A DNA stretch of 64,000 bases from the NCBI GenBank assembly GCA_046543095.1, contig JBKHAC010000002.1:2525-66524 (forward strand), given 5' to 3'. Below are positions 10,551 through 36,974 of the stretch, piece by piece. Source of the stretch: Candidatus Woesearchaeota archaeon (GTDB lineage Archaea > Nanobdellota > Nanobdellia > Woesearchaeales > 21-14-0-10-32-9). The translations under genes and the position numbers were made by a program. Within the stretch, counting starts at the first letter, position 1. The number at the start of each line of letters is the position of its first letter. The notes below the pieces were generated by a model. That model was not told the DNA's origin. It made no database searches and was given only the letters and a program-made list of their open reading frames with translations.

Positions 10551-11786
10551 TTGGGACTACTATCATTTTTAAAGAAAAAACCTAAAGAAGAAAAAAAAGA
10601 AGGGGATAACACGAATCAACTGATTGAAGATAGTTCTAAAACTCAAAATACAACACTCAAACCAGAAGAGACTAATTCTATAAGTGCAAACACGGAAAAT
10701 AATACTCAAAGTACCCAAAGTGTTCAAAATAAAGATGAACAAAATAATCAAAATACTCAAGAAGATGACTCCAACGAAGATTTCGACAAACTCGTCACAC
10801 AAATAATAACAAAACTTGAAGATATGAAAACAGGCGCAGACACAAAACTAGAAGAACTCGAGACAAAAATACAAGAACTAAACAACACAAACAAAAAAGA
10901 AGAACTAGATGCAATAAAAGAAAAAGTTGAGAAACTAGAAAACAGCCTAAAAGAATTCTCATCAATATATGAGGCAATAAGCTCACAATACAACCCACTC
11001 TTAGACGGATTCGACGAGAGAGATAAAAAACAAAACCTAAACAAAGAAGAAAAACAACAAGAAACTGCGCGAAGCATAGATGCGTCAGAAATTCAACAAT
11101 CGCCTGAAATTGAACAGAAAAACGTTACTGAACAAATAAAAGAACAAAATACGGAAATGACACAGAGCCTAAACAAACAAAATGAAGAACAACAAGTTCA
11201 AGAAGCTCAGCAAACCCAACAAGCTCAACAGTCCCAAGAAATAATCACACAAACACAAGAACACACAAAAGAACAAATACAAGAAAAGGTACAAGAAAAG
11301 GCACAAGAACAAATAGAAGAAAAGGTACAAGATAGCACCTCACAAACACAAGAAACAAATTCAGATTATAATTTAAAATACACAATATCAACACAATCAG
11401 ATCTCGACGATGACAATAACACAGAACAAATACTAGTATCAAGACACGAGAATAAAAACCAAAGCGCAGATAGAGAATCAATACTAAAGAAAAAAATAAT
11501 AGAATACATGCTTAAAGAAAAAAGAATACACTTAGAGAGATTATCAAGAACAGTAGACGGCGATAAAAAATTCTTTTTAGATAATAATAAAGCAATAGCA
11601 AATTTAATTGATTTAGTAAATATAATAAAAGACGACGAACAATCATTCACAAAACACGTAACAGAAGAAAAAGATGATTTTGCAAACTGGATAGACCACG
11701 TACTCGGACTTGCAGATATCGCACAAAAACTTCGAGGAATAAAAAACAGAGAAGAATACACGCTAACACTTCTATCTGAAATATGA
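10551..11786 (+). CDS. Gln/Glu-rich coiled-coil protein with a conserved C-terminal DFANWIDHV domain; immediately downstream of an archaellin gene
   Basis: Low-complexity N-terminus with a Q/E coiled coil. The C-terminus shares a ~40-aa domain with the CDS at 6723. Confidence 0.55.
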   Translation: MGLLSFLKKKPKEEKKEGDNTNQLIEDSSKTQNTTLKPEETNSISANTENNTQSTQSVQNKDEQNNQNTQEDDSNEDFDKLVTQIITKLEDMKTGADTKLEELETKIQELNNTNKKEELDAIKEKVEKLENSLKEFSSIYEAISSQYNPLLDGFDERDKKQNLNKEEKQQETARSIDASEIQQSPEIEQKNVTEQIKEQNTEMTQSLNKQNEEQQVQEAQQTQQAQQSQEIITQTQEHTKEQIQEKVQEKAQEQIEEKVQDSTSQTQETNSDYNLKYTISTQSDLDDDNNTEQILVSRHENKNQSADRESILKKKIIEYMLKEKRIHLERLSRTVDGDKKFFLDNNKAIANLIDLVNIIKDDEQSFTKHVTEEKDDFANWIDHVLGLADIAQKLRGIKNREEYTLTLLSEI

Positions 11787-12000
11787 ATTAAGTTAATAAC
11801 TAAACAAACAATTAAATTAATGATAAAACTAATAATTATGAAAATAAATTTTCTAAACTTCTTTAAATAATTAATAAGTGCGGACACAATTTAATAATCT
11901 ATTTTTATATTAATTGAAAAAATAACAAAATTAAATTAAAAGTATGATGGGGCGCCATATTGATGATTAAAGTCTAATAAGAAATATTGAATGCACGAAA

Positions 12001-12813
12001 TCAAGATTTATAATTATTTTTTAAATATGCGGCGACGCTTGGAAATAAATGTGTACTTCTATTATTCAATTGAATGGTAAGATTAGGATTGTCATTAAAA
12101 TTAGTTTTTAAACTGCCAGAATACTGTGAATTCGCCTGTAATTCTTTAAGCATTATACCTTCAAGAAGTAGATTCTTTAAAAAAATATGAGAAATTAAAG
12201 GCTTTAAACCTGATTCTTGTCGCTCCATAAAATCAGGCAAATTATTTGCTTCTTCTTTTTCAATATGTGATTGTCTATTTAAACCAGTATTTTCAAAATC
12301 AATTATTGTGTCTTTTGTGTATAATTTAAATCCTTCATTTTTAAGAGAAGCCGTATTTCTTACATACTCTTTATATATTTTTAAATCTATATCTAAATTT
12401 TTTAAATCTTCAATATTGCTTTTATTAGGTATGGTTGCTATATATATGTGGTCTAATTCACACTTGAGTTTATTTTCATCATGATTATAATGTGAAAAAA
12501 TCATAATGTCTTTTTTATCACCATCAAAAAAGGATAATTTACTCGAATAAAACGGCAGGACGCGTTCTTCTTTACTTCTTATAGCTTCAATAGTTAATGT
12601 TGCTTTTGCAGTTTTATCTTTTAAGAAGTCATTGTATGCATTTAAAGAAATATTTTGTTTAAAATAATTATTAATGGAGTTGGTGTTCAAATCGTTTTCA
12701 ATTATGTCAATAGGTGACTTAATCATACTTAGACATAATCCTCCAGCTAGTAGGGTTGTTTTTAGTAGAAAATCTCTTCTCGACATTTCTTTACTTGAGC
12801 TCGTCATAAGCAC
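12001..12813 (-). CDS. Tat-secreted protein of unknown function
   Basis: Twin-arginine motif SRRDFLLKTTLLAGGLCLS at the N-terminus. Confidence 0.5.
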   Translation of the reverse strand: MLMTSSSKEMSRRDFLLKTTLLAGGLCLSMIKSPIDIIENDLNTNSINNYFKQNISLNAYNDFLKDKTAKATLTIEAIRSKEERVLPFYSSKLSFFDGDKKDIMIFSHYNHDENKLKCELDHIYIATIPNKSNIEDLKNLDIDLKIYKEYVRNTASLKNEGFKLYTKDTIIDFENTGLNRQSHIEKEEANNLPDFMERQESGLKPLISHIFLKNLLLEGIMLKELQANSQYSGSLKTNFNDNPNLTIQLNNRSTHLFPSVAAYLKNNYKS

Positions 12814-12891
12814 TAGAAAAACAACAAAACTATATAAATGTTTCTATTTAGTAGTGACGAAATAATTCTTTTTGATTTTTTTGAAGTAACT

Positions 12892-14568
12892 CTACCAAAT
12901 CGTACTCATATCAGGAAGAACCATATCAACAACAGAAGGAATAGTCCAATAAAGCAAAGCAATAATCCAAATCATAATAATTAAATTAATGATGGATGAA
13001 TAATTAGACCCACCATCAATAATCTTCAAAATCCACGAAGACGTAAAAGCATGAATTATAAGCATAACCATAATAAGAACAAGAGCCACACCAAAATTAA
13101 TCTCCTGATTCATAGGCATAATAGTCTGCGCAAAATCAACAGTCATCTCATCATCAATATTCGTCGTAGAAAAAAGCTGAGACATCTTCTCAGAAATCCT
13201 AAACGTAATAAAAATAGTTAAAGACACACCAATAGTAATACCATAAAAAACACCAGTGAGACCCTGCGCGAGCTGAGCCCTAAGCTTCCTTAAAGAAAGC
13301 AAATGCTGAACATTATTACTAACAATCTCACCAATCTTTTCAGCATTACCACCAAGATAAATAGACTCAGAGAAAATCTTACTAAAATTATTAACCAAGT
13401 TACTACCAGAATCAACCGCGTAATGATACCAAGACTTAAACTTATCAGTACCAAGCCTCAAACGCCTATAAAGATTAACACTCATATCATTAATAACACC
13501 AAAATCATGCATCTGAGTAGATTTTAAAGACGAAATAACGCCCCCATTACGAACCTCAATAGCAGACCCCAAAATCCTCGCATAAACAGGAAACTGAACA
13601 TCACGCTTACGCACAATCTCTTCCTCACGAACAGCAAGAAACCCAGGATATAAAAGCGGAAGCGAACCTAAAGCCATAACAGTAATAAACGATAAAGAAG
13701 TCAAAAATAATAAACCAACAAAAAAAACACCACTAATAATCACAGCAAATTTAAACGCCTGCTCAATTTTTAACTGACCTAAACTTTTATGCGCCAAATC
13801 ATGAAAAATTTGATCACGAGGAATAAAACCTTTCACTGCAAAAATAATCACAACATCCATAACAACTAAACCAACCAAAGCATAAATGAGCAAAACATTA
13901 ACAGGCAAAGCAATTAACAAAGGCGCAAGCAAAATAGTACTCACAAGAAACGCAAAAGAAACCGAGAGCGCCATAAACAATTCTTGAATCATCTTAATAA
14001 TCTCAAGAGATTTTTTATATTCAACAGAATAATCATCAAGCACAGCACCCTGCTCATCATACAAAAAAGTATCAAGCTCCTCACCAAAATCCATGACAAC
14101 AGCGAACCTATCAAGAAAATCACCAAGAATACGAGAAGGAGTCCTCGAACCCATCAAACGACAAGAATTAACAAAACCCATATTCCAATCTTTAGACAAA
14201 TAAATAACCTTCTCAAACGTCTTACTAATCTCACCAAAAACCTTTTTCTCAGCAATCTTCTTAAATAACGCATGACGAGAAATCTTCATAGTCGCAATAG
14301 TACCTGCATAAGTAATAAAAAAATGCAAATTCTCATTAATATTTTGTTTAACAGCAGAATACTTAATTAAAGGATAACCTATAAGTCCACCCATAGTTAA
14401 TAAAATTAAAAAAATACTAAACACAAAACCAACAGGAACAATAAAAGGAATAATTAAAGAAATTAAAACAACACTACTCAAAATAGGCAAAACTAACTTC
14501 AACAAATAATCATTCAAATTCGAATAACCCACAAGTAAAATTACTTTATCAATTTTTTTAGTATTCAT
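12892..14568 (-). CDS. flaJ: Archaellum assembly membrane protein FlaJ (TadC/GspF-like)
   Basis: Polytopic membrane protein of 558 aa immediately downstream of flaI. Typical FlaJ N-terminal TM pair and cytoplasmic domains. Confidence 0.8.
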   Translation of the reverse strand: MNTKKIDKVILLVGYSNLNDYLLKLVLPILSSVVLISLIIPFIVPVGFVFSIFLILLTMGGLIGYPLIKYSAVKQNINENLHFFITYAGTIATMKISRHALFKKIAEKKVFGEISKTFEKVIYLSKDWNMGFVNSCRLMGSRTPSRILGDFLDRFAVVMDFGEELDTFLYDEQGAVLDDYSVEYKKSLEIIKMIQELFMALSVSFAFLVSTILLAPLLIALPVNVLLIYALVGLVVMDVVIIFAVKGFIPRDQIFHDLAHKSLGQLKIEQAFKFAVIISGVFFVGLLFLTSLSFITVMALGSLPLLYPGFLAVREEEIVRKRDVQFPVYARILGSAIEVRNGGVISSLKSTQMHDFGVINDMSVNLYRRLRLGTDKFKSWYHYAVDSGSNLVNNFSKIFSESIYLGGNAEKIGEIVSNNVQHLLSLRKLRAQLAQGLTGVFYGITIGVSLTIFITFRISEKMSQLFSTTNIDDEMTVDFAQTIMPMNQEINFGVALVLIMVMLIIHAFTSSWILKIIDGGSNYSSIINLIIMIWIIALLYWTIPSVVDMVLPDMSTIW

Positions 14569-14608
14569 AAAAAACCTAACTCTCTAATTTAAAAAACCCA
14601 CCTAAAAT

Positions 14609-16255
14609 TTATAATTTAAACGGCAATGTTGCCTCACCACCATGATAATAATTACGAAGAATAGACCAAACATCATAATAATTAAAAATCTTCTCCTCAA
14701 CCATACGCTTTAAAATCTTAGTACGCTTATCCAATTCAGCATAAATCTCACGAGGATCTTTAAGCCCAAGAGTCTTCGCAATTTTCTGCTCAAGAATATA
14801 ACTATTAAAAAGACCCCTAAAAATTAATTTATCATTAACACTATTCCACGTAAAAACCTCACGCGTAATAACTTTATTTGCAGGAGCATAATAACGCTCA
14901 AGCTCACTTAAAGATAAAACACGACGAACAAATTTATTACCACGATAAACAGCTTGCTGAATCAAACACAAATTCAAGTTATCAATAAAAGCAATAGGAA
15001 CATTAATAGGATCACCCGTCAAACGCTGAATCATAGTATTAACATCACCAGCGTGAAAAGTAGATATAACAGGATGCCCAGTCTGCATCGCCTGAAACGC
15101 AATAGCACCCTCCTCACCACGAATCTCACCCACAATAATATAATTAGGACGACTACGAAGAGCAGCAATAAGCAAATCCAAATAACCAACATCAGACTCC
15201 TTACCAGCCTCACGAGTAACCAAATGCTGCCAAATATCATGAGGCATAGTAACCTCGGGAGTATTCTCAACAGTAAACACCTTCGCAGTAGGCTTAATAA
15301 AAGCAGCACACGCATTAAGCGTAGTCGTTTTACCAGACGCAGTTTCTCCACAAACAAACAAATTCATACCATTTTCAAGCGAGAGCCAAATGTACGCTGC
15401 AAGATCAGCACTAAGAGTATTCCAATTAATAATCTGAGTAATAGAGACAGGAACATCAGAAAACTTACGAATAGTAAAACTAGAACCCTCAAGACTAATC
15501 TCACGACCAAAAATAAAATTCGCACGAGAACCATCAGGCATAATCGCATCAACAACAGGATGACGATCACTAGTTGGACGCTCAACACGCTCAGTAGTAT
15601 CAATAACATACTTATCAAGCTCCTTATCTGACTTAAACTCAATAGTTGTATAAATCATACCAAACACTTTATGAATAGACGTTACAACACCAACACCAGT
15701 ACAATGAATATCCTCCAAATTAGGATCACGCAAAAGAGGCTCAAGCTTACCATAACCAACACGATTCCTAACCAAGAAATATTTAATTTTCTCATATTGC
15801 AAAGACGTAAGCCTAGTTTTAGATGAAATACTAAACAAACCCTTACTCGAACTAGCACCACCAGACTCAGAAACTTCAACAACGTCATCAAGAAGCTTCA
15901 ACAAAACAGGACCAATTTCAGTAACTTTATCAGGCACAGGCTCTTTATACGCAATATCAATTAAACGCTCAACACACTCATCATAAAGCTTCTGCTCATC
16001 ATCAGTTAAAAACGGCTCAATTACGGTATAAATGGTGTCTTCAGCCGGCTTCTTTCTCAAATGAATAAAAATAGGATCACCAACAGGATAAATAAGATTA
16101 GGAAAATCCATCTTACCCATATCACGAGTAAGCGCAGGCACAAAAGTAGGCATATCCTCTTTAGAAAAACCCTCAACATACAACCTAAGATGCTCAAACT
16201 TCTTTTTAGCCTCTTCAAAATCCTTAGTAATTTCAACTTCCTTTTTCATTTTCAA
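14609..16255 (-). CDS. flaI: Archaellum ATPase FlaI (type II/IV secretion ATPase family)
   Basis: Walker A VCGETASGKTTTLNA, Walker B/Asp box and His box. 548 aa. Confidence 0.9.
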   Translation of the reverse strand: MKMKKEVEITKDFEEAKKKFEHLRLYVEGFSKEDMPTFVPALTRDMGKMDFPNLIYPVGDPIFIHLRKKPAEDTIYTVIEPFLTDDEQKLYDECVERLIDIAYKEPVPDKVTEIGPVLLKLLDDVVEVSESGGASSSKGLFSISSKTRLTSLQYEKIKYFLVRNRVGYGKLEPLLRDPNLEDIHCTGVGVVTSIHKVFGMIYTTIEFKSDKELDKYVIDTTERVERPTSDRHPVVDAIMPDGSRANFIFGREISLEGSSFTIRKFSDVPVSITQIINWNTLSADLAAYIWLSLENGMNLFVCGETASGKTTTLNACAAFIKPTAKVFTVENTPEVTMPHDIWQHLVTREAGKESDVGYLDLLIAALRSRPNYIIVGEIRGEEGAIAFQAMQTGHPVISTFHAGDVNTMIQRLTGDPINVPIAFIDNLNLCLIQQAVYRGNKFVRRVLSLSELERYYAPANKVITREVFTWNSVNDKLIFRGLFNSYILEQKIAKTLGLKDPREIYAELDKRTKILKRMVEEKIFNYYDVWSILRNYYHGGEATLPFKL

Positions 16256-21970: not shown

Positions 21971-22696
21971 CTAATCAGAACTAGTATTAGTGTCGATATC
22001 AGTGTCATGAATGCCTGTATCTCTAATTACAAAAGACACTTCTTTACCCTCAGGCAAACTCCTATGCTTTCTAATGATTGCTTTTTTTTCAGTATCATGA
22101 CGCTGAAGTTCAATTAAACATTTACTTGCATAACGCAAAATATCCCCACCAACCATATTAATTTTATTTTTATCCTCAAAATCAGCATAAACTTGATTCG
22201 TCACAATTACAGGAATTTTAAATTTACGCGCAATCTGAATTAAATTCACAAGCTGAACACCCAAATCCCTATTAACTTTAAAAACCTCCTTAGTAATGCC
22301 AATCTCAAGCCTATAGAGCATCGCGATACTATCAACAATAATTAAACCAATCTTATCAGTCACAAGATTCTTAAGCTTCTCAAAAACTTTTTTCTGCTCA
22401 GAAAAATTAGTCGGAGTTAAAACAATAACTTTCCTTAAAATCTCATCATAATTATCAGCAAGCTGCTTAATTCTCGAAATAGAAAAAGAACCCTCAGTAT
22501 CAACATAAATGACTTTTTTATCATAATTATTAACCATAGCAAGCAAACACATATTAGACTTACCAGAACCAGGAGGACCATAAATAGTTGTGATTACTTC
22601 ATTTTCATAACCGCCTTCAAGCAACCAATCCAAAATATCAGAACCAGTACTTACCTTAGTATCTTCGTTTTTCATTTTATCAAAACAAGAAAACAC
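21971..22696 (-). CDS. radB: RecA-superfamily ATPase, RadB-like
   Basis: DILDWLLEGGYENEVITTIYGPPGSGKSNMCL Walker A. About 240 aa. Walker B IIVDSIA. Confidence 0.55.
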   Translation of the reverse strand: MFSCFDKMKNEDTKVSTGSDILDWLLEGGYENEVITTIYGPPGSGKSNMCLLAMVNNYDKKVIYVDTEGSFSISRIKQLADNYDEILRKVIVLTPTNFSEQKKVFEKLKNLVTDKIGLIIVDSIAMLYRLEIGITKEVFKVNRDLGVQLVNLIQIARKFKIPVIVTNQVYADFEDKNKINMVGGDILRYASKCLIELQRHDTEKKAIIRKHRSLPEGKEVSFVIRDTGIHDTDIDTNTSSD

Positions 22697-23652: not shown

Positions 23653-23768
23653 GGTGGACAGCTTTCCGGATCTCCCGCCCTTGAAGGCAGTACGCACCGG
23701 AACGTGCATGTGCTTGACTTCCGTGTTCGAAATGAGAACGGGTATATCCACACGGCTTTGACCGTCCA
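23653..23768 (-). rRNA. rrf: 5S ribosomal RNA
   Basis: Reverse complement reads GGACGGTCAAAGCC...CCGTTCTCATTTCGAACACGGAAGTCAAGC...GTACTGCCTTCAAGGGCGGGAGA...GCTGTCCACC. Helix I termini pair. Matches the universal 5S loop C and helix IV/V consensus. GC-rich island in an AT-rich context. Confidence 0.85.
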
Positions 23769-23982
23769 ATACATAGGAATGCACATCCCTTTATAAAGCT
23801 TTTTCTTAAAAATAATTATCTTCAATAATGAAAATAAATTATTTTTCAGGATTTTTAAAAATTATGAAATAAATGTCTTAAATGTCTTGTTCATAATACT
23901 GCAAATATTCCACATAATTATTATCTCATCATGAACTAAAAAAATAAAAGATTTTTAAAGAAAAGACAAGTAATAAAATAAA

Positions 23983-24661: not shown

Positions 24662-27556
24662 TTAAAATAAAGGCAAAGTGCCTTTAGATTTATAAGGATC
24701 AATCCCAGTTAATGCACGAATATATTTTTGATTAGCTTTCCAAAACGCCGGAGGCCTACTATAAATTTCATCAAGAAATTTATTCTGCATATCTTTATGA
24801 TCCCCCAAATTATCTAAAAAATAATTAAACATACGAAAAATCAAGTCATCATTTTTAGATTTTGGCTCTTTACGATTTAAATAAACATTAAAATTATCAA
24901 TCCTACCAATAAGCCCTCTATCTTTAAAATTAACAGCATCAACCACGCCAAGACCAAAATTCAAACCAGTAAATTCACGAACATAAAGACCTTCAGTTTT
25001 AGCAACTAAACCAACACCCAAATACCTAATATGATCAGCAATAATATTATTAATATCGAGCATAGTATAATCAAAAGGAATCAACCCTCGACGAACAATT
25101 TTTCTGCCGCATTTATATTCTGCGCTAAAAATATAATTAGTCCTAGATAATTCAAAATCAGAAGACCCACCCAGATTATCAGAAAAATAAACATCCTCAA
25201 AAACATCACCCTCAACATTAAAACTTTTAAAAACATCCTCTACCCTGTAACGCTTACCAAATTCTAAGCCTGCCAAATCCATAAAATTTTTAATTTTATC
25301 AATCGCAACATGCAAAAAAGAATGATGCTTTGCAAGCAAATCATACTTCTCAACAAAATTAGAACTTTCAAGCATCCTCTCATGAATTAACTTCATGGAA
25401 TGATTATTTTTAATAATATCAATACCAGCATTAATAATTACGCCCGGAAAAACAAGCTCACCTGAAATAATTCCTTCAGTTTGTTTTTCACGTTTAAACA
25501 AAGAATAAATAATCTCATCAGGACTAAGCCTATCTTCAAGCTTTTCAAGATTATGCCGCAGGCTAAATTCATGCCTGAGCTTATATGTACCAAGACGCAT
25601 AAAATAATCACGAGAACCCATATCATAAAAATTTTTAACAGGATTATTATTAAAAACAGAAGGCAAAGGCTTATTTGATGCAATAGACTCAAGCACAGCA
25701 TTTTTTAAAAATAAATCCTTTACAACTCTACTTTTCACACCATCTTCAATAGTATAATCAATAATTTTCCAAATTAAATCAGGATTGCCTGAATTAACAT
25801 ATTCTTCCATTAAATTATAATCTAAAGATTTAGAAGAATTTGCAAAAGTTGCAAGCTTAAAATCTTTCAAAATAGGAATTCTATTTTCAACATACTTTTT
25901 AGTGTCAAGAATTTTTTTTGAACTTAAAGTCCAAAGATTCTTAGAATTATTTTTCTGTTTATATTGTTTAATTTTATTTTCAACACTATCAGAAATAATT
26001 CCTTGCCTATTTAAAGCAGAATCATTATTAAATTTAATTAAATGCTTTTGATCAAATTCCTCAAAATTATGACCAATTATATATTCATACTTCATAGAAT
26101 CAAAATTAAGCAAACCAATAAGATCAACCTCATCATCTGCAAAAACAAGCTCAACATTAGAATTAGTTAAAGAATTACGTTTTGAAAGATTATCTAAATA
26201 AATTGATTTTACATCATCATTTAACCAAGCATCCTTCGTCATATAAATCTTATTTTCAACCTCACTTTCAAGAACAGCCATAAAAACCCTACCAGATATG
26301 TCTCTTGAAGATTTATCGTAACCTGTAACTTCAATATCAATAACCGCAGAATTTTTTAAATAAAAATTAAAAGCACAATTAACAGCGCCTTCAAGAGACG
26401 ACACAGGCTTTTCACTTACAAAATGAGACAAAGCAGGAACTTTATTATTAATTTGACTTAAAAGAGTTTTCTTAGGATTAAACAACATATGTAACGGAAA
26501 AAAATCCCTGAGCTGACTAGTCGGACTATTCAAATTTAAAGGATCAAAAAGCTCCTCACGCGCACGCCTCAACTTAACATTTTTATCATCGTTTGATTTG
26601 ATTAAATCACCTAATGGTTTTAAACCACGATACTTCGTTTCACCAATTAAAATATCCTCACTTAGACTTTTCATAAAACTAATATTATTATTTGCAGTCA
26701 ATCTAACACAATACTTCACATCAAATTTACTTCTCCGTTTATGAACAACACCAAATTGATCAACATGATTTTTAAAATTACTCACTTCTTTTATTTTATT
26801 AAGATACTCGGATGCAGTTTTCTCAGAATCAAATTCAGGACCCTCATATATATTAATTCTAAACAAAGAAGAATCAAGCTCTTTTAATAAAGACTCCACA
26901 CATTTAACCTCGACAAATTTTCTTTTATAATTAACAGAAATATCGTCTTCAAAAACACCTCTTTCTTTAAGAGACTCAAAAAGATAATCTTTTTTAGAAG
27001 CTAATTCATCAAAATCAGGAATAATTTCAGTTCTCGCTAAAAACCTTTTTTTCGAATTACGAATAAAAATTTGTTTTTTTTTATCTTCATCCAAAAAAAA
27101 TTCTAAATTATGCCTATCTTCTCGATTACCACGATGCCAAATAAGAACAGTTTCACTGCCTTCACGATAAAAAGTACTATCATCATATTCATTTGAGAAC
27201 ACATTTTTACTACCGTACTTTTTTAATTCAAAAGAACCGTCAACGGACTCTCGAATCTTAGATAAAAGCTCACTTGGAGATTTAAAACCATATTTTTTCC
27301 AATCAATCTCAATGCTAGGCGTTATGTGATCCCACACATCCTCTTTTTCAAATAACGAAAAAGTTTCAGAATCATAATATCTAATTATAACTTCATTACC
27401 TTTATTAGCCTTAGGTAAAACTTCCAAAATTCTATATTTGTCCAATTTATCCTCAAGACCAGACTTATTAACTTTAGATAAACTATTTTTGAGTTCTTGA
27501 GCAGTATTATTAATTGAATTTTGCTTTGACATAAAAAAAAGGTAATTAAAAAACAT
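24662..27556 (-). CDS. Large (964 aa) protein with family-B-polymerase-like DEDDy 3'-5' exonuclease motifs. Polymerase motifs are not recognisable.
   Basis: Exo I AVIDIEVTGYD, Exo II YIIGHNFEEFDQKHL (cf. archaeal PolB ITYNGDNFDFAYL), Exo III IIDYTIEDGV (cf. YSMEDAKV), with PolB-like spacing. GKRYRV resembles the KxY motif. No SLYPS or DTD motifs. Confidence 0.4.
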   Translation of the reverse strand: MFFNYLFFMSKQNSINNTAQELKNSLSKVNKSGLEDKLDKYRILEVLPKANKGNEVIIRYYDSETFSLFEKEDVWDHITPSIEIDWKKYGFKSPSELLSKIRESVDGSFELKKYGSKNVFSNEYDDSTFYREGSETVLIWHRGNREDRHNLEFFLDEDKKKQIFIRNSKKRFLARTEIIPDFDELASKKDYLFESLKERGVFEDDISVNYKRKFVEVKCVESLLKELDSSLFRINIYEGPEFDSEKTASEYLNKIKEVSNFKNHVDQFGVVHKRRSKFDVKYCVRLTANNNISFMKSLSEDILIGETKYRGLKPLGDLIKSNDDKNVKLRRAREELFDPLNLNSPTSQLRDFFPLHMLFNPKKTLLSQINNKVPALSHFVSEKPVSSLEGAVNCAFNFYLKNSAVIDIEVTGYDKSSRDISGRVFMAVLESEVENKIYMTKDAWLNDDVKSIYLDNLSKRNSLTNSNVELVFADDEVDLIGLLNFDSMKYEYIIGHNFEEFDQKHLIKFNNDSALNRQGIISDSVENKIKQYKQKNNSKNLWTLSSKKILDTKKYVENRIPILKDFKLATFANSSKSLDYNLMEEYVNSGNPDLIWKIIDYTIEDGVKSRVVKDLFLKNAVLESIASNKPLPSVFNNNPVKNFYDMGSRDYFMRLGTYKLRHEFSLRHNLEKLEDRLSPDEIIYSLFKREKQTEGIISGELVFPGVIINAGIDIIKNNHSMKLIHERMLESSNFVEKYDLLAKHHSFLHVAIDKIKNFMDLAGLEFGKRYRVEDVFKSFNVEGDVFEDVYFSDNLGGSSDFELSRTNYIFSAEYKCGRKIVRRGLIPFDYTMLDINNIIADHIRYLGVGLVAKTEGLYVREFTGLNFGLGVVDAVNFKDRGLIGRIDNFNVYLNRKEPKSKNDDLIFRMFNYFLDNLGDHKDMQNKFLDEIYSRPPAFWKANQKYIRALTGIDPYKSKGTLPLF

Positions 27557-27883: not shown

Positions 27884-28099
27884 ATGAGAAGACATGGCAA
27901 CCCTAGAGGGGGCAGAGAATTTAACGACAGACAAGATACAGCTGATAGAGGAAACTTTTCAGGAGGATTTAATAGAGGTCCAAGACAATCATTTAAAGCA
28001 ACATGCGCAAAGTGCAATGCTGAGTGTGATGTCCCATTTAAACCAACAGAAGGAAGACCTGTATATTGTAGAGATTGTTTTCAAAAAAACAAGCACTAA
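27884..28099 (+). CDS. Small RGG-rich zinc-ribbon protein (CxxC-x17-CxxC, VPF.P...RPVYC type), probably RNA-binding
   Basis: CAKCNAECDVPFKPTEGRPVYCRDCF. N-terminal R/G-rich region. SD GAAGGTG. Confidence 0.5.
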   Translation: MRRHGNPRGGREFNDRQDTADRGNFSGGFNRGPRQSFKATCAKCNAECDVPFKPTEGRPVYCRDCFQKNKH

Positions 28100-28130
28100 A
28101 AAAAATAAAAACAAATGAGGAAAAAATAAA

Positions 28131-28325
28131 ATGAAAGGAAACGTAAAATTTTTTAACGAAACAAAAGGCTTCGGATTTATAACCGGAGAAGATGGAAAAG
28201 ACTACTTCGTGCATCAATCAGGAATCGCAGAAGGAGCATACATAAATAATGATGATGAAGTCTCATTCGATGTTGAAACAGGCGATAGAGGACTTAAAGC
28301 AGTAAACGTACAAAAAGCTGAATAA
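28131..28325 (+). CDS. csp: Cold-shock protein (CspA family, S1-like OB fold)
   Basis: MKGNVKFFNETKGFGFI...DYFVHQSGI with RNP1/RNP2 motifs. 64 aa. Confidence 0.85.
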   Translation: MKGNVKFFNETKGFGFITGEDGKDYFVHQSGIAEGAYINNDDEVSFDVETGDRGLKAVNVQKAE

Positions 28326-28409
28326 ACAAAAAAAAACTTTTTATTTTTTATAATTTTTTTTATAAATTCTAAAAGTACAAAACTAAAAGTAATTTAGAGG
28401 TTAAATTAG

Positions 28410-29840
28410 ATGAACACAGAAAACAACAAGATGAAATTTGAAGATTTCAATTTCAGCCCGCAATTAATGCGCGCAATAAATAAACTAGGCTACAGCGAGC
28501 CAACAGAAATACAAGCAAAAACAATACCTGCAGTACTCGAAGGATCAGATGTACTCGGCGAGTCAGCAACAGGATCTGGAAAAACTCTCGCATTCGGCGT
28601 AGGTGCAATAGAGACATCAAAACCAAAACAAGGACTTCAAACATTAATATTAGTTCCAACAAGAGAACTCGCAGAACAAGTGATGACATCAATAAAAGAC
28701 TTAAATTCTGGAAAATCACTAAAACTTGTATCAATATACGGAGGCGTATCAATAAATCCACAAATGGACGCACTTAGATACTCCGAGATAGCAATTGCAA
28801 CACCTGGAAGATTAAAAGATCATATACAAAGAGGAACAATTAATTTATCAAATATAAAACTCTTAATACTAGACGAAGCAGACAGAATGCTTGATATGGG
28901 CTTTGCAGACGACATTGAAGATATAGTAAAACAATGCCCAAAACAAAGACAAACATTATTCTTTTCAGCAACATTCCCACCACAAGTAAAAACACTAACA
29001 AAAAAATACTTAAAAGTACCAGTACAGGTAAAAGTACAAAACCAAGTAGACCCAAAACTATTAAAACAAATATATTACGATGTTAGGCGAGGAGATAAAT
29101 TATCATTATTAATACACTTAATTAGAAAAGAGAGCGCAGATAAAATAATGATTTTTTGCAATACAAGAATAAATTCGGATTTAGTACAACAAAATCTTAA
29201 ATTTAATAAAATAAGCGCGGAAGCTCTACACGGCGGATTTACACAAGCAAGCAGAACAAAAGTAATAGATAAATTTAAAGAAGGAAAAAGTAAAGTACTA
29301 GTCTGCACAGATGTCGCTGCACGAGGAATACATGTTGATGACGTCACACACATATATAATTATGATATACCTAAAGACCATAATGATTATGTGCACAGAA
29401 TAGGAAGAACTGCAAGAGCTGGAAGTGAGGGACTAGTCATAAATTTACTATGTGATTTTGACCACCAAAACTTTTCAAGAGTTATGAGCAACTTTGATTT
29501 TAACATACCAAAAGTAGAGATGCCAAAAGATATGGAAAAAATAAAATTCAACGCGCAAAAAATAAGCGGCGGAGAAGACAGAGTGCAATCAGGCGGCAGG
29601 GGCGGACCTAGACGTGAAGGCGGAAGAGGCCCTAGCAGAGGCAGAAGCGATAATCGAAGCAGAGGACGTAGCCAAGGCGGAAGATATAATAGGGACTCAA
29701 GATCAGATAGCTCAAATGAAGGAAGAAGCGAACCTAGACGCGAAGGCAGCAGAAGCCCAAACAGAAGTTCCAGCAGAGGCCCAAGCAGAGGAAGTAGTAG
29801 AAGCCCAAATAGGCGCTCAGATAACCGTCCTCGAAACTAA
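28410..29840 (+). CDS. DEAD-box ATP-dependent RNA helicase with an Arg/Ser/Gly-rich C-terminal tail
   Basis: Q-motif, GSGKT, DEAD, SAT and HRIGRTARAG motifs. The C-terminal ~100 aa is RGG/RS low-complexity. Confidence 0.9.
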   Translation: MNTENNKMKFEDFNFSPQLMRAINKLGYSEPTEIQAKTIPAVLEGSDVLGESATGSGKTLAFGVGAIETSKPKQGLQTLILVPTRELAEQVMTSIKDLNSGKSLKLVSIYGGVSINPQMDALRYSEIAIATPGRLKDHIQRGTINLSNIKLLILDEADRMLDMGFADDIEDIVKQCPKQRQTLFFSATFPPQVKTLTKKYLKVPVQVKVQNQVDPKLLKQIYYDVRRGDKLSLLIHLIRKESADKIMIFCNTRINSDLVQQNLKFNKISAEALHGGFTQASRTKVIDKFKEGKSKVLVCTDVAARGIHVDDVTHIYNYDIPKDHNDYVHRIGRTARAGSEGLVINLLCDFDHQNFSRVMSNFDFNIPKVEMPKDMEKIKFNAQKISGGEDRVQSGGRGGPRREGGRGPSRGRSDNRSRGRSQGGRYNRDSRSDSSNEGRSEPRREGSRSPNRSSSRGPSRGSSRSPNRRSDNRPRN

Positions 29841-32251: not shown

Positions 32252-33769
32252 ATGAGGTATCAATATAAAATAGCAGATACTAATATTTTTTTAATAGATC
32301 CTATAGTCGCACTATATGGTTTTGGCCCAAAAGATCAAGACACAGTTAATCACTTAATAATACCATCAAAAGTATTAAACGAGATGGACAAATTTAAAAC
32401 AGAACAGTACACTGAGCGAGGTTACAATTCAAGAGTATTTTCAAGAGAATTAAAAAAAATAACACGCGAAAAAGGAGCCTTAAGCGAACCGGTAAAACTA
32501 AGAGACAATTATTTTCTACAAGTATCTTTTGAATCAACACCCGTACCATTTACAAAGGACGAACTAATAAATGATGATTACATAATAGGCACAGCAAAAT
32601 ATTATGCAGAAAATCACTCAAATGAGAATGTTGAATTAATTACGAATGACGATTTGGTATACATTAAAGCAAGCTCTCTTGGAATTAATGTTTCTGATTG
32701 GATAGGTGCTCGAGCAGTATCAAGTATTGAAGAAAGTTATAAAGGATGGAGAACAGTTCGTGCGCCAAAGCACATATATAACAACTTAAAAGATGGCGCG
32801 TTAGATATAACAAACACGAAAATTGAAGGATTAGAAGACATTATGCCAAACGAATATATTTTATTTGTAGATGAAAATTTGCCTGAAAGTTACGAAGTAC
32901 CTATATTTAACAGCAAAAATGAAAACTCGACAGATTTCGCATTAGCAAGATACGTATCAAACATTAAAAGTTTTGAGAATGGATGTATTGTTCACGTGAA
33001 TCCAAGAAGCGCAAATAATTCATCGGTTTTATCTATAAAATCAAGAAACTACGAACAAGCATTCGCACTTGACGCACTACTAAACCCGAATATAAAACTA
33101 GTCAATCTCATAGGAATGGCAGGAACAGGAAAGACGCTACTTTCACTTGCTGCAGGAATAAACATGCTAAATATGGAAGATGAATCTAAATCAAAACAAT
33201 ATGATAGAGTGATTGCAACAAGAATGATGATATCTTCAGGAGGCCAAGAACTCGGAGCACTACCAGGGGATATAGGTGACAAAATGGATCCTTACATGGA
33301 ACCAATATATGATAATTTAAAACCAGAAATGTTTAAAAAATTCATTGATAAGAATGGAAACGCAGAACCTAGAAAAACTAAAGTTTTGCTCGAACAAAAA
33401 AAAGAAGAAATAAATGAGATATATAAGATGAATGCATTTAAAACCCATTTATTAAATAATGACAAATTAGTAATACAACCACTACAAGCAATGAGAGGCA
33501 GAAGCATAGACGGGGCTTTTTTTATAGTGACAGAAGGACAAAACCTATCGCCTTCAGAAATAAAAACAATTATTACACGAGCAGGAGAAAACACAAAAAT
33601 TGTTGTTGAAGGAGACCCAGACCAAATAGATAAAAAAGGACTAACAGATGTAATAAACGGGCTAATGCATGCATCAGAAAAATTTAAAGAACAAGAAATC
33701 TCAGCTACAGTGAAATTATTTCAAGGAGAACGAAGCGAACTTGCAACACTTGGCGGAAAACTATTATGA
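32252..33769 (+). CDS. PhoH2-type protein: N-terminal PIN domain fused to a PhoH-like ATPase
   Basis: PIN-like N-terminus (acidic residues in IADTNIFLIDP). Walker A LIGMAGTGKTLLSLAAG. Walker B FFIVTEGQNL. Confidence 0.7.
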   Translation: MRYQYKIADTNIFLIDPIVALYGFGPKDQDTVNHLIIPSKVLNEMDKFKTEQYTERGYNSRVFSRELKKITREKGALSEPVKLRDNYFLQVSFESTPVPFTKDELINDDYIIGTAKYYAENHSNENVELITNDDLVYIKASSLGINVSDWIGARAVSSIEESYKGWRTVRAPKHIYNNLKDGALDITNTKIEGLEDIMPNEYILFVDENLPESYEVPIFNSKNENSTDFALARYVSNIKSFENGCIVHVNPRSANNSSVLSIKSRNYEQAFALDALLNPNIKLVNLIGMAGTGKTLLSLAAGINMLNMEDESKSKQYDRVIATRMMISSGGQELGALPGDIGDKMDPYMEPIYDNLKPEMFKKFIDKNGNAEPRKTKVLLEQKKEEINEIYKMNAFKTHLLNNDKLVIQPLQAMRGRSIDGAFFIVTEGQNLSPSEIKTIITRAGENTKIVVEGDPDQIDKKGLTDVINGLMHASEKFKEQEISATVKLFQGERSELATLGGKLL

Positions 33770-34784: not shown

Positions 34785-36974
34785 TTATTTATCAACCTCA
34801 TACTCCGCGTCAACAATTTCTTTAATTCTTTGCGCCTTTTTTTGACCAATAAGATCAACAATTTGCAAATCAGATGCACTAGCATTAATAACATTTTTTA
34901 CAGATTTAAAATGCTCAAGCAAACTAGGTGCGAGCTTCGAGCCAACACCAGGCAAACTTGATATAATATATTCTTGAAGCTCCCTATTAGAAAAAGGCTT
35001 TGACTGATGCATCTGAAAATCCTGCACATCAGGACTCTGCTCCTTGTTTGCAACAAAAATCAAATACGCAGCAGTATCTTTAGGATTCTTCGTAAAAATA
35101 ATAGGAATCTTCATAATACTTGTTAAAGTATAAATCATGCCACGAATAGCATTAGGATGAATTTTACGCTGAGCATAAACATCCTCATCGCCCTCAACAA
35201 TAAAAAAAGGCTTATGATATTGCTTAAGCTCCCTTGCCTGACTCAAAAGCCTACCATCAATGATACTATCAACAAAATCCTTAACAGTTTTATATTCAAC
35301 CACGACGTTTTCAGTTAAATGAAAATCACCAATACTCAAACTCTTAAGCTCAAGACTCGCACCCATATTCATCAAAGACTTCATAACACTCGAGCCCTTC
35401 TCACGAAAATCAACAAGAATAGAAACAGGCTTTTGATCAAATTCAACAATAGTTTTCTGTTCGCGCCTATCCATCGCAGAAACTTTATCTTTAATATTTT
35501 TAAGCACGCGATACATACGTTTCTCTTTATGATGTGCAACCCAACGATTACTCTCATCACGAGTATTGCTCGTAACTAAAACAACAACTCGCCCAGCCTT
35601 ATGACGACCAGTCCTACCACGACGCTGAACAGTACGAATCGCACTCGGAACAGGCTCATAAAATAAAACAAGATTAACCTCAGGAATATCAAGACCTTCC
35701 TCACCAACACTAGTTGCAATAAGACAAGAAAATTTATCTTCTTTAAATTGTTCAATCATAAGCTTCTGATTTTTCTGCGAGAGACCACCCACGTTCTTTT
35801 TTTTAGCCTGACCAGTAAATACCTCGCATTTAATAAAATTAGCATCAAGTACACTTTTAAGCTTAATACCAGTATCACGAAACTGAGAAAAAATAATTAT
35901 TTTAGATGCAGGATCACGCTCAAGCTCATCTAAAATGAGAGATTTCACAGCATCAATTTTAGGATGCTGAAAATTAGACTCTCTAAGCGCTCTTGCAGCA
36001 ATTAAAGCAGACCTAAAATTAACATCGCGAACAAGATTTTTAACAGCTTTCGTATTAGATGTTAAAGCCTGCTTTTCAAGACCCTCAAGATACTCAATTA
36101 AAGGAGCCACATCTTGAGTTTCAATTAAATCCTGCGCATGCTGAACCTTCAGAGATTCACTTAAAAGACTAATAGTTTTCAAAACCTCAAAATCACGCTC
36201 ACCAGCAGAAACTCTACTGTGAAGCTCAGATATTAATTTCAAAAGACTTGTTTTTGAATAAGTTAAATTATCTTTTGATACAAACCCTAGTTTTGATGCT
36301 TCCTCAAGTTTTGATACAAAACACTTATCAAGAAACATTTTCACACGTAGTAAGTCCTCAGGTAATTCAACTTTTATATAATCAATATTAATATCTTGAA
36401 CATACGGCGCAACATCAGCATCATCCACGCTACGATACTCAAGATCCTCAATTGAGAGATTCAAACAAACATTCAAAATAGTCTCCTCATCAGAACCAGG
36501 ACTTGCAGTAAGACCTAAAATCCTAGGATGATTTGCATCTTCCATATATTTTTTTGCAAGATACACATAAGAATAATCCCCAACAGCTCTGTGAGCCTCA
36601 TCAAAAACAATAACTGACACATCTTTTAGAGAAATTCTACTACTAATAACATCATTTTCAAAACCTTGAGGCGTACTTACAAATACGCTGTTATTTTCCC
36701 AAAGTTCTTTTCGTTTAGATGGAGGGGTACTGCCTGAAAAACTAGTGCATGTGCCTAAAAATTCAATTAAAGTTTTTTCATGTTGCTCAACTAAAGGCCT
36801 TGTTGGCGCGAGAAAAACAACTTTAGATTTAGGATATAAAGCAAGCCTGTGCTTTATTAACATGGCGGCGATAGCTGTTTTACCAAGTCCTGTAGGGATT
36901 ACAGCAAGAGTATTTTTAGAGGATGCAGTACCTAGAATAGATTCTTGATAAAGCCTCAATTTAATGCTTGACAT
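34785..36974 (-). CDS. hef: Hef: SF2 helicase fused to an ERCC4/XPF-family nuclease and HhH2 (archaeal FANCM/XPF homolog)
   Basis: N-terminal IPTGLGKTAIAAM, DEAH and QRRGRTGR helicase motifs. C-terminal ERCC4 block GDFHL...ELK. Terminal HhH2 LPGVGSKLAPSLL. Confidence 0.85.
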   Translation of the reverse strand: MSSIKLRLYQESILGTASSKNTLAVIPTGLGKTAIAAMLIKHRLALYPKSKVVFLAPTRPLVEQHEKTLIEFLGTCTSFSGSTPPSKRKELWENNSVFVSTPQGFENDVISSRISLKDVSVIVFDEAHRAVGDYSYVYLAKKYMEDANHPRILGLTASPGSDEETILNVCLNLSIEDLEYRSVDDADVAPYVQDINIDYIKVELPEDLLRVKMFLDKCFVSKLEEASKLGFVSKDNLTYSKTSLLKLISELHSRVSAGERDFEVLKTISLLSESLKVQHAQDLIETQDVAPLIEYLEGLEKQALTSNTKAVKNLVRDVNFRSALIAARALRESNFQHPKIDAVKSLILDELERDPASKIIIFSQFRDTGIKLKSVLDANFIKCEVFTGQAKKKNVGGLSQKNQKLMIEQFKEDKFSCLIATSVGEEGLDIPEVNLVLFYEPVPSAIRTVQRRGRTGRHKAGRVVVLVTSNTRDESNRWVAHHKEKRMYRVLKNIKDKVSAMDRREQKTIVEFDQKPVSILVDFREKGSSVMKSLMNMGASLELKSLSIGDFHLTENVVVEYKTVKDFVDSIIDGRLLSQARELKQYHKPFFIVEGDEDVYAQRKIHPNAIRGMIYTLTSIMKIPIIFTKNPKDTAAYLIFVANKEQSPDVQDFQMHQSKPFSNRELQEYIISSLPGVGSKLAPSLLEHFKSVKNVINASASDLQIVDLIGQKKAQRIKEIVDAEYEVDK

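What the first reader, a model, noticed from the sequence alone, without database searches (positions are those of the whole stretch)
24662..27556. 964-aa protein carrying family-B-polymerase-type Exo I/II/III motifs but no recognisable polymerase catalytic motifs
Residues about 400-610 contain Exo I AVIDIEVTGYD, Exo II YIIGHNFEEFDQKHL and Exo III IIDYTIEDGV. These closely mirror archaeal PolB (FDIET / ITYNGDNFDFAYL / YSMEDAKV) in sequence and spacing. Downstream 360 aa contain only faint echoes (DMGSRDYF, GKRYRV) of motif A and KxY, with no SLYPS and no DTD. There is also an about 400-aa N-terminal extension. Candidate interpretations: a highly divergent replicative PolB, an inactivated PolB paralog of the kind documented in several archaeal lineages, or a novel PolB-exonuclease-derived protein.
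Basis: partly seen in the sequence, partly recalled or inferred. Interest (0 to 1): 0.7.

Follow-up and report, generated by a model that had tools for sequence, protein, structure and literature searches.

The report
Polymerase-dead PolB relative keeping its exonuclease
This Woesearchaeota gene encodes a relative of family-B DNA polymerases that keeps an intact proofreading-type 3'-5' exonuclease site but has lost the residues needed to synthesise DNA, and it is probably a sliding-clamp-tethered DNA-end trimming enzyme of a kind not yet described.

Summary
A 964-aa ORF (24662-27556, minus strand) carries PolB-type Exo I/II/III motifs and no SLYPS, KxxxNSxYG or DTD.

**Active sites.** The exonuclease residues are invariant or nearly so: D407, E409, Y601 and D605 in all 36 members, D502 in at least 90%. 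A motif A remnant (ISGELVFPGVII, 697-708) aligns to Pfu LDFRALYPSIII, but the catalytic Asp is Ser and varies across the family. No acidic residue in the polymerase remnant is conserved family-wide, and the remnant is about 100 aa shorter than in Pfu.

**Context.** All named members come from Woesearchaeota/Nanoarchaeota MAGs, and the loci examined are chromosomal. In four other loci the gene lies directly upstream of PCNA. About half the members end in a clamp-binding-like (Q/G)xxLF tail.

**Verdict.** A polymerase-dead, exonuclease-live PolB derivative, most likely a PCNA-tethered 3'-5' DNA exonuclease. It is a new variant of a known kind. The function is inferred, not shown.

The parts
24662..27556 (-). 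Whole gene: 964-aa PolB-derived protein (stop codon 24662-24664)
   Evidence: ORF list. Identical to NCBI MAG protein ACLFN8_00810, 'hypothetical protein', Candidatus Woesearchaeota. AlphaFold model pLDDT 88.7, pTM 0.86.
26942..27556 (-). Residues 1-205: subfamily-specific N-terminal extension. Residues 1-36 are disordered; the rest is a beta-rich domain plus helices. Function unknown.
   Evidence: Confidently folded from residue 41. Absent from distant members, whose Exo I sits at about residue 165 as in canonical PolB. No family match. The boundary is inferred.
26399..26941 (-). Residues 206-386: probable PolB N-terminal domain, including FRINIYE (232-238, compare Pfu FRPYIYA) and the conserved DPLxLNSPxxQLRxFFP motif (338-354)
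25697..26398 (-). Residues 387-620: DEDDy 3'-5' exonuclease domain of PolB type
   Evidence: hmmsearch against the PDB, E = 4.6e-13 to Pfu/KOD/Tgo PolB. hhalign 97%. Invariant in 36 sequences: D407, E409, D551, L568, K576, Y601, D605; D502 at least 90%.
26315..26347 (-). Exo I, AVIDIEVTGYD (404-414); catalytic D407 and E409
26039..26083 (-). Exo II, YIIGHNFEEFDQKHL (492-506); N497 and D502
25736..25765 (-). Exo III, IIDYTIEDGV (598-607); Y601 and D605
25487..25696 (-). Residues 621-690: helical segment after the exonuclease domain (second part of the PolB N-terminal domain, up to the YxGG region)
   Evidence: Aligned to Pfu 320-392 by hmmsearch and hhalign.
25433..25468 (-). Motif A remnant, ISGELVFPGVII (697-708), aligned to Pfu LDFRALYPSIII. 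The catalytic Asp404 position is S698.
   Evidence: hhalign. Position 698 is S/K/E/R/D/N/Q/V/A across the family. It lies on beta strand 695-703 of the model.
24686..25486 (-). Residues 691-957: degenerate, shortened palm/fingers/thumb module with no conserved catalytic carboxylates
24665..24691 (-). C-terminal tail KSKGTLPLF (956-964): candidate clamp (PCNA)-binding peptide
   Evidence: A [QG]x2-3[LM]F motif lies in the last 10 residues of 21 of 43 family members, against 3.7% of 191 background ORFs. Low pLDDT at 961-964. PCNA is the adjacent gene in four other loci. The function is inferred.

Best explanation
The gene encodes a full-length derivative of an archaeal family-B DNA polymerase. 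The DEDDy 3'-5' exonuclease active site has been kept under strict selection. The polymerase active site has been lost: the motif A Asp is replaced, motif B is degenerate, no motif C Asp pair exists, and the module is about 100 aa shorter.

The most likely mode of action (inferred) is as follows. The degenerate palm/fingers/thumb scaffold and the N-terminal domains still hold a primer-template or a frayed 3' end, as a PolB does in editing mode. The 3' end is fed to the exonuclease site and trimmed by two-metal hydrolysis. No resynthesis is possible. The short C-terminal (Q/G)xxLF tail tethers the enzyme to PCNA.

It would thus act as a stand-alone, clamp-bound 3'-end editing or repair exonuclease. 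Its targets would be mismatched or damaged 3' termini left by enzymes without their own proofreading, such as primase or translesion/repair synthesis.

Shown here: homology, fold, which residues are conserved or lost, and the gene linkage to PCNA. Inferred: exonuclease activity, DNA as substrate, PCNA binding and the cellular role.

The confidence of 0.6 is for the whole statement. The structural part (a PolB homologue with a dead polymerase site and a conserved exonuclease site) stands at about 0.9. The PCNA-tethered DNA-exonuclease role stands at about 0.55.
For: **Homology to PolB**
- The family profile hits Thermococcales PolBs at E = 4.6e-13, and also Pol delta, E. coli Pol II and HSV UL30.
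- hhalign gives 97% probability, E = 1.2e-10 to 3.4e-11.
- Three distant members pass the Pfam gathering score for PF03104.

**Fold**
- The model has pLDDT 88.7 and pTM 0.86.
- Foldseek E is about 1e-10, probability 1.0, over about 800 collinear columns.

**Exonuclease site intact**
- D407, E409, Y601 and D605 are invariant in 36 sequences that are on average about 20% identical, and D502 is conserved in at least 90%.
- The same result holds in an independent alignment of the 16 most distant members.
- The PolB-specific positions between the motifs (D551, L568, K576) are also invariant.

**Polymerase site dead**
- No canonical motif A, B or C in any of 45 relatives.
- The Pfu D404 equivalent is S698 and is variable.
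- No acidic residue in 691-964 is conserved across both subgroups.
- No PF00136 hit.

**Not a pseudogene**
- Intact 770-1060-aa ORFs in about 40 clusters at 50% identity.
- The polymerase remnant is still 32% identical pairwise among the 20 closer members, comparable with the other regions of the protein (0.22-0.43).

**Clamp link**
- PCNA lies directly downstream on the same strand in L007, L012, L013 and L014.
- The C-terminal (Q/G)xxLF tail is enriched 13-fold over background.

**Genomic setting**
- The context is chromosomal and rich in replication and repair genes: RadB, Hef and GINS51 in the window; Hef and primase in L007; Hjc and DNA ligase in L014.
Against: - No activity has been measured.
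- The clamp-binding tail is a short, degenerate motif. In the query's own subgroup the usual Gln is Gly.
- PCNA is not adjacent in the window itself or in its closest relatives.
- The closer subfamily keeps a private set of acidic residues in the polymerase remnant (D753, D774, D800, E802). Their role is unexplained and they could form a non-canonical site.
- Motif C could not be placed with confidence. Three candidate placements exist, and C-terminus-only hhalign gave only 1-2% probability.
- The RNase J-like gene upstream in four loci, and the DEAD-box/CSD genes next to the query gene, leave an RNA substrate open.
- Whether these genomes also hold proofreading-competent PolB or PolD could not be checked.
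Confidence: 0.6

Rival explanations
1. It is an RNA-directed 3'-5' exonuclease: a PolB exonuclease domain repurposed for RNA decay or primer/RNA 3'-end processing, working with the RNase J-like 5'-3' nuclease encoded next to it.
Against: The closest sequence and fold relatives are all DNA polymerases' editing domains. The PolB DNA-binding scaffold is retained. PCNA, a DNA clamp, is the most specific neighbour. The DEAD-box/CSD unit is transcribed divergently.
Confidence: 0.12
2. It is a non-catalytic scaffold or regulator, like the inactivated C-terminal half of Pol epsilon. It would bind DNA, PCNA or another polymerase, with the Exo residues kept only for metal or DNA-end binding.
For: The other known polymerase-dead PolB derivatives are thought to act structurally (literature: PMC2669801, PMC4304020). 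The polymerase module is conserved yet lacks catalytic residues.
Against: In the described inactivated PolBs the exonuclease residues also decay (PMC7544198, PMC4104785). Here D407, E409, Y601 and D605 are invariant and D502 is at least 90% conserved, across sequences that are otherwise about 20% identical. That is the signature of a working active site.
Confidence: 0.1
3. It is an active, extremely divergent DNA polymerase, possibly replicative, that uses a non-canonical catalytic site.
For: The whole PolB architecture is retained. The closer subfamily has conserved acidic residues D753, D774, D800 and E802, plus a DK dipeptide reminiscent of the D(K/R) motif proposed to rescue PolB2 (PMC7544198). 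No canonical PolB was found in the 64-kb window or in the fetched loci.
Against: The motif A Asp is absent and variable, and motifs B and C are absent. The private acidic residues are not conserved in the distant subgroup. The fingers/palm region is shortened. The family is rare and patchy: about 40 clusters at 50% identity among 1.84 billion representatives, and one hit among the GTDB species representatives. That is unlike an essential replicase. According to PMC7544198, Woesearchaeota are reported to carry B7 PolBs.
Confidence: 0.07
4. It is a decaying remnant or a mobile-element/viral PolB with no cellular role.
For: Patchy distribution.
Against: The ORFs are intact and long, with strong motif conservation. 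Synteny with housekeeping genes is conserved across homologues of 43-59% identity. There is no PHROGs hit. The fold prediction is high-confidence.
Confidence: 0.03

Closest known systems
Archaeal B3-type family-B DNA polymerases (Pfu, KOD, Tgo, P. abyssi PolB)
   Same: Best sequence-profile and fold match. Same domain order: N-terminal domain, DEDDy exonuclease with Exo I/II/III, then palm, fingers and thumb. The motif A strand is recognisable (LxFPxxII against LYPSII). There is a C-terminal tail resembling a clamp-binding peptide.
   Different: No catalytic Asp in motif A, no motif B, no DTD motif C and no PF00136 hit. The polymerase module is about 100 aa shorter, with roughly 40 aa missing between motif A and the fingers in the low-confidence hhalign. 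The query's subfamily has an extra N-terminal domain of about 200 aa. It therefore cannot polymerise by the canonical mechanism.
Archaeal PolB2 / B2 'inactivated' PolBs (Rogozin 2008, PMC2527604; Makarova 2014, PMC4104785; Kazlauskas 2020, PMC7544198)
   Same: An archaeal PolB paralog with substitutions in the polymerase active site. A RadA-family gene lies nearby in the window and in L001. A DK dipeptide is conserved in the closer subfamily.
   Different: In B2, Exo I is not conserved and Exo III is missing, whereas here all three are strictly conserved. B2 keeps one motif C Asp and shows weak translesion polymerase activity. The B2 operon partners are an inactivated RadA and arCOG07300, whereas here the neighbour is a genuine RadB with an intact Walker A motif, and it is not co-transcribed. 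No direct sequence comparison with B2 was made.
Inactivated C-terminal PolB module of eukaryotic Pol epsilon, and poxvirus F12 (PMC2669801, PMC4304020)
   Same: PolB-derived proteins that keep the fold but have lost polymerase catalysis and been exapted.
   Different: In those proteins the exonuclease site is inactivated as well, and their roles are structural. Here the exonuclease site is the most conserved part of the protein.
Stand-alone DnaQ-like DEDD exonucleases (Pol III epsilon, TREX1, WRN-exo, RNase D), and the N-terminal exonuclease fragment of T4 gp43 (PDB 1noy)
   Different: Those are small, single-domain enzymes of 170-250 aa. This protein carries the complete PolB N-terminal domain and a polymerase-like DNA-binding scaffold, and it is specifically of the PolB lineage (inter-motif residues D551, L568, K576).

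Membership tests
Family-B DNA polymerase superfamily (homology) | PolB-type N-terminal + DEDDy exonuclease domain with Exo I (DxE), Exo II (NxxxFD) and Exo III (YxxxD) | tested here: met
   PDB profile search E = 4.6e-13. hhalign 97%. Catalytic residues invariant or at least 90% conserved. PF03104 passed by distant members P0030, P0031 and P0035.
Family-B DNA polymerase superfamily (homology) | Collinear N-terminal / exo / palm / fingers / thumb fold | tested here: met
Active family-B DNA polymerase (enzyme) | Motif A DxxSLYPS with the metal-binding Asp | tested here: not met
   Remnant ISGELVFPGVII aligned to Pfu LDFRALYPSIII. The Asp position is S698 and varies across the family.
Active family-B DNA polymerase (enzyme) | Motif B KxxxNSxYG on the fingers helix | tested here: not met
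   No match in 45 relatives. Low-confidence hhalign shows a degenerate or deleted region.
Active family-B DNA polymerase (enzyme) | Motif C YxDTDS with catalytic Asp residues | tested here: not met
   No DTD in any member. No acidic residue in 691-964 is conserved in both subgroups. The exact position of the motif C hairpin could not be fixed.
Active family-B DNA polymerase (enzyme) | Match to Pfam PF00136 (DNA_pol_B) | tested here: not met
   No hit for the query at E <= 10, nor for 20 relatives. The canonical PolB P0171 does carry it.
Archaeal PolB2/B2 inactivated group | Degraded Exo I and missing Exo III (PMC7544198) | tested here: not met
   Exo I, II and III are strictly conserved here.
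Archaeal PolB2/B2 inactivated group | Operon with an inactivated RadA paralog and arCOG07300 (PMC4104785) | tested here: not met
   The neighbour is a true RadB: TIGR02237 at 217 bits, above the 172 cutoff, with Walker A GPPGSGKS intact. It is separated from the gene by a 5S rRNA gene and an opposite-strand GT2 gene in the window, and is convergent in L001.
Archaeal PolB2/B2 inactivated group | Sequence or phylogenetic grouping with B2 | not tested
The best PDB matches are B3-type PolBs.
DEDDy subgroup of DnaQ-like 3'-5' exonucleases | Four acidic residues plus Tyr in three motifs on an RNase H-like fold | tested here: met
PCNA-interacting proteins (PIP box) | C-terminal Qxx[LIM]xx[FY][FY]-type peptide that binds PCNA | tested here: inconclusive
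   A shortened (Q/G)xxLF tail occurs in 21 of 43 members against 3.7% of background ORFs. Some members have QxxLFDxL or TLDFL. PCNA is adjacent in four loci.

The most novel reading that the evidence does not exclude
This family is a dedicated, PCNA-tethered extrinsic proofreader built from a gutted PolB. In some Woesearchaeota/Nanoarchaeota, replication fidelity, or clean-up of primase or translesion-synthesis errors, would then be outsourced to a separate clamp-bound editing enzyme. That would be an archaeal analogue of the bacterial epsilon subunit, and of Pol delta proofreading for Pol alpha, possibly compensating for resident polymerases whose own exonucleases are missing or dead. An even bolder variant, judged much less likely (about 5-7%), is that the conserved D753/D774/D800/E802 cluster of the closer subfamily forms a new kind of polymerase active site on a PolB scaffold.
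Probability: 0.2. Interest if true: 0.8.

Novelty: new variant of a known kind. Interest (0 to 1): 0.58.

Why it matters
In the inactivated PolB derivatives found in the papers read here (archaeal PolB2, the C-terminal half of Pol epsilon, poxvirus F12), the exonuclease site is degraded along with the polymerase site. Pol alpha and Pol zeta keep the polymerase and lose the exonuclease. This family shows the opposite outcome: the polymerase dies and the editing nuclease survives, with a probable clamp tether.

If that is confirmed, three things follow:
- It adds a new functional class to the PolB superfamily.
- It gives DPANN archaea a previously unannotated replication/repair factor. Public records currently label members 'hypothetical', '3'-5' exonuclease' or 'family B DNA polymerase'.
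- It offers a natural test case for how editing-mode DNA binding works without a polymerase site.

It also matters for genome annotation. Counting such proteins as DNA polymerases would misstate the replication machinery of reduced archaeal genomes.

Tried and rejected
- **Single-sequence searches.** Pfam, NCBIfam, PHROGs and PDB found nothing meaningful. The 7-sequence profile A1 also missed the PDB PolBs. Only the 36-sequence profile connected the family to PolB.
- **First AlphaFold model.** Built on 7 sequences, it was poor in the N-terminal 386 residues (pLDDT 62). It was superseded by the 36-sequence model.
- **C-terminus-only profile comparison.** Residues 685-964 against Thermococcales PolB 380-775 was not significant, at 1-2% probability. 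Motifs B and C therefore could not be mapped reliably. Three candidate motif C placements were considered and none has a conserved acidic pair.
- **My first guess about SGELVFPG.** I initially took it for the YxGG motif. I dropped that in favour of the hhalign assignment to motif A.
- **PolB2-like operon idea.** An inactivated RadA partner was rejected, because the neighbour is an active-type RadB and is not operonic.
- **Upstream ORFs in L011 and L012.** These unknown ORFs are unrelated to each other and have no Pfam match.
- **Collection scans.** Scans with A1 found only one locus each in genome contigs and metagenome contigs.
- **AFDB search.** The afdb50 Foldseek library was unavailable.
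- **Canonical PolB nearby.** tblastn with Pfu PolB found no canonical PolB in the window or in any fetched locus. This says nothing about the rest of the genomes.
- **Literature.** Searches found no description of a PolB with a live exonuclease and a dead polymerase. The library is incomplete.
Full report
**1. The observation**

The window holds a 964-aa ORF at 24662-27556 on the minus strand. The public collection has the same protein (100% identity over 99% of the ORF) as P0001, called from an ATG 8 codons downstream. It is a 'hypothetical protein' of a Candidatus Woesearchaeota MAG.

- Exo I, AVIDIEVTGYD, at residue 404
- Exo II, YIIGHNFEEFDQKHL, at 492
- Exo III, IIDYTIEDGV, at 598

Neither this protein nor any of its 45 collected relatives contains SLYP, KxxxNSxYG or DTD. 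The single sequence matches nothing in Pfam, NCBIfam, PHROGs or PDB sequences. The motif pattern is therefore real but invisible to routine annotation.

**2. The family**

The word-indexed search found only six relatives, at 43-59% identity. An exhaustive HMMER search of 1.84 billion representatives with their profile found 40 clusters, 22 of them at E < 1e-30.

Every member that carries an organism name comes from a Woesearchaeota or Nanoarchaeota MAG. One contig (CAZCTY01), fetched through the genome scan, is titled 'Methanosarcinales' in its NCBI record, although its gene order matches the window.

Public annotations of members vary: 'hypothetical protein', '3'-5' exonuclease' (P0030) and 'DNA polymerase elongation subunit (family B)' (P0038).

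**3. It is a PolB homologue along its whole length**

Sequence evidence:
- Three distant members pass Pfam's threshold for the PolB exonuclease domain PF03104. None hits the polymerase domain PF00136.
- The 36-sequence profile A2 hits archaeal PolBs in the PDB (Pfu, KOD, Tgo, 9N, P. abyssi) at E = 4.6e-13 to 1e-7. It hits Pol delta, E. coli Pol II and HSV UL30 more weakly.
- hhalign against Pfu PolB gives 97% probability over query 402-708 and Pfu 136-415. My recalled Pfu sequence was verified as 100% identical to P0047.

Structural evidence:
- An AlphaFold model built on A2 is confident throughout (pLDDT 88.7, pTM 0.86).
- Fragments that hold only the N-terminal and exonuclease domains (T4 gp43 1noy, Pol epsilon 1-528) align 281-337 residues.
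- The difference of roughly 130-200 residues means that part of the palm/fingers/thumb module also superposes.
- Foldseek gives collinear alignments of about 800 columns to whole PolB chains (E about 1e-10, probability 1.0). The TM-scores are low because the domains are oriented differently.

**4. Exonuclease live, polymerase dead**

Across 36 sequences with a mean column identity of 20%, the only invariant residues are:
- D407 and E409 (Exo I)
- Y601 and D605 (Exo III)
- D551, L568 and K576, which align to the PolB-specific stretches HFDLY, YTLEAV and KPKEKVY of Pfu

D502 (Exo II) is conserved in at least 90%. An independent alignment of the 16 most distant members gives the same list and nothing else.

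In the polymerase part, hhalign aligns ISGELVFPGVII (697-708) with Pfu motif A, LDFRALYPSIII. The L-Y/F-P core survives. The metal-binding Asp404 position is S698 here, and it is S, K, E, R, D, N, Q, V or A in relatives.

Beyond motif A, the sequence signal is weak. C-terminus-only hhalign gives 1-2% probability. The extended alignment stays collinear to Pfu residue 651, but with near-zero posterior confidence. At that low confidence:
- ERMLESSNFVEKYDLL pairs with the first fingers helix, KTKMKETQDPIEKILLD.
- GLEFGKRY pairs with the palm helix VTAWGRKY.
- Motif B is largely deleted.
- Motif C cannot be placed uniquely.

Whichever placement is taken, no acidic residue in 691-964 is conserved in both subgroups. 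The distance from Exo III to the C-terminus is 359 aa, against about 460 in Pfu.

The closer subfamily does keep D753-K754, D774, D800 and E802. These are unexplained.

**5. N-terminus**

The genuinely extra part is about residues 1-205. Distant members whose Exo I sits at about residue 165 lack it. Its function is unknown.

**6. Context**

The window is ordinary archaeal chromosome. It holds:
- uS2, a 5S rRNA gene, NFACT, RadB and a GT2 glycosyltransferase
- DEAD-box helicase, IMPDH, PIN-PhoH and Hef
- GINS51, ribosomal protein L10/P0 and SecD/F

The local gene order is shared with homologues of 43-59% identity. This argues against a mobile-element origin.

The most informative linkage appears in other branches of the family:
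- PCNA lies directly downstream on the same strand in L007 (39-nt gap), L013 and L014. In L012 it is one small ORF away.
- An RNase J-like gene lies directly upstream in L013, L014 and L016, and one ORF away in L012.
- L007 also has Hef and primase nearby. L014 has Hjc and a DNA ligase.
- L012, L013 and L014 are related contexts and L007 is independent. There are therefore at least two independent PCNA associations.
- No PCNA lies near the gene in the window or in its closest relatives.

**7. C-terminal tail**

Despite poor conservation of the preceding helices, 21 of 43 members have [QG]x2-3[LM]F within their last 10 residues. Only 3.7% of 191 background ORFs from the same loci do. Examples:
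- KSKGTLPLF (the query)
- DQIGLF
- EQLSLFG
- QQTLF
- AQLKLF
- HQGDLFDKL

The tail is predicted to be disordered. From general knowledge, this resembles clamp-binding peptides: the archaeal and eukaryotic PIP box QxxLxxFF, and the bacterial QLxLF. Canonical archaeal PolBs carry theirs at the extreme C-terminus. Together with the PCNA gene linkage, this suggests PCNA tethering. That is an inference, not a test.

**8. Interpretation**

The best-supported reading is a PolB paralog that lost polymerase catalysis and kept a working DEDDy exonuclease, together with the polymerase-like DNA-binding scaffold. It most likely acts on PCNA as a stand-alone 3'-5' DNA exonuclease for 3'-end editing or repair.

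Confidence that it is a polymerase-dead, exonuclease-conserved PolB homologue is about 0.9. Confidence in the PCNA-tethered DNA-exonuclease role is about 0.55.

Rivals:
- An RNA-directed exonuclease working with RNase J (0.12)
- A purely structural factor like the C-terminal half of Pol epsilon (0.10)
- A non-canonical active polymerase (0.07)
- A decaying or mobile-element remnant (0.03)

**9. Comparison with known families**

It works like a proofreading domain detached from synthesis, as do the epsilon subunit, TREX and the T4 gp43 N-terminal fragment. By descent, however, it is a full PolB.

It fails the defining tests of an active PolB (motifs A, B and C, and PF00136). It also fails those of the PolB2/B2 inactivated group, which has degraded Exo motifs and an inactivated-RadA operon (PMC7544198, PMC4104785, PMC2527604).

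Literature searches found no description of a PolB group with a live exonuclease and a dead polymerase. Kazlauskas et al. 2020 list B7 (Pol II-like) and a B9 member for Woesearchaeota, not this family.

**10. Limits**

- I could not inspect model coordinates, search the C-terminal module alone by fold, predict a PCNA complex, or inventory the polymerases of the host genomes.
- The afdb50 library was unavailable.
- Function is inferred throughout.

Noticed in passing
L012:5619-12236, L013:4089-9047, L014:4596-9586, L016:4624-8496, L007:10001-13287: A conserved gene string, RNase J-like beta-CASP nuclease, then the PolB-derived gene, then PCNA, occurs in three related loci. L016 ends right after the gene. 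In an unrelated Nanoarchaeota locus (L007) the gene is followed by PCNA after a 39-nt gap, with Hef and primase nearby.
   Followed up: partly
window 21971-22696 (-): A genuine RadB (TIGR02237, 217 bits; Walker A GPPGSGKS intact) lies close to the gene, here and in L001. It is not the inactivated RadA that accompanies PolB2 operons.
   Followed up: yes
window 23653-23769 (-): A lone 5S rRNA gene (Rfam, 59 bits) sits between two small unknown ORFs and a GT2 glycosyltransferase gene. There are no 16S or 23S genes and no tRNA genes anywhere in the 64 kb.
   Followed up: no
window 27884-29840 (+): A divergently transcribed unit of Zn-ribbon ORF (71 aa, CxxC...CxxC), cold-shock-domain protein (64 aa) and DEAD-box RNA helicase lies next to the gene. 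The helicase has a long Arg/Ser/Gly-rich low-complexity C-terminal tail. The CSD+helicase pair is conserved next to the gene in L001 and L005; L006 keeps the Zn-ribbon and CSD genes, but the adjacent 506-aa ORF has no helicase hit on record.
   Followed up: partly
window 34785-36974 (-), 48304-49017 (+), 32252-33769 (+): Other replication and repair genes are in the window: full-length Hef (helicase + ERCC4 nuclease + HhH), GINS51 and a PIN-PhoH ATPase. No PolB, PolD or PCNA was detected in the ORFs scanned.
   Followed up: partly
L001/L004 (contig CAZCTY010000001.1): The contig holding the 43%-identical homologue is titled 'uncultured Methanosarcinales archaeon' in NCBI. It shares the window's gene order (uS2, DEAD helicase, CSD, RadB, GT2, NFACT). 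This looks like a taxonomic mislabel or a binning error.
   Followed up: no
window residues 753-754, 774, 800-802 of the protein (about nt 25151-25298): D753-K754, D774, D800 and E802 are conserved in the 20 closer family members but not in the 16 distant ones. This is a subfamily-private acidic cluster of unknown role inside the dead polymerase module.
   Followed up: partly
window 10551-16255: A cluster of type IV pilus/archaellum-like genes: a FlaC-like protein, a T2SSF-like membrane protein and a T2SSE-family ATPase. Large CARDB-domain and other unannotated surface-type proteins lie nearby (594-2399).
   Followed up: no
window 25438-25701 (-): An 87-aa ORF lies wholly inside the gene in another frame. 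It is Leu/Ile/Cys-rich, looks like a by-product of AT-rich sequence, and is not a gene.
   Followed up: no
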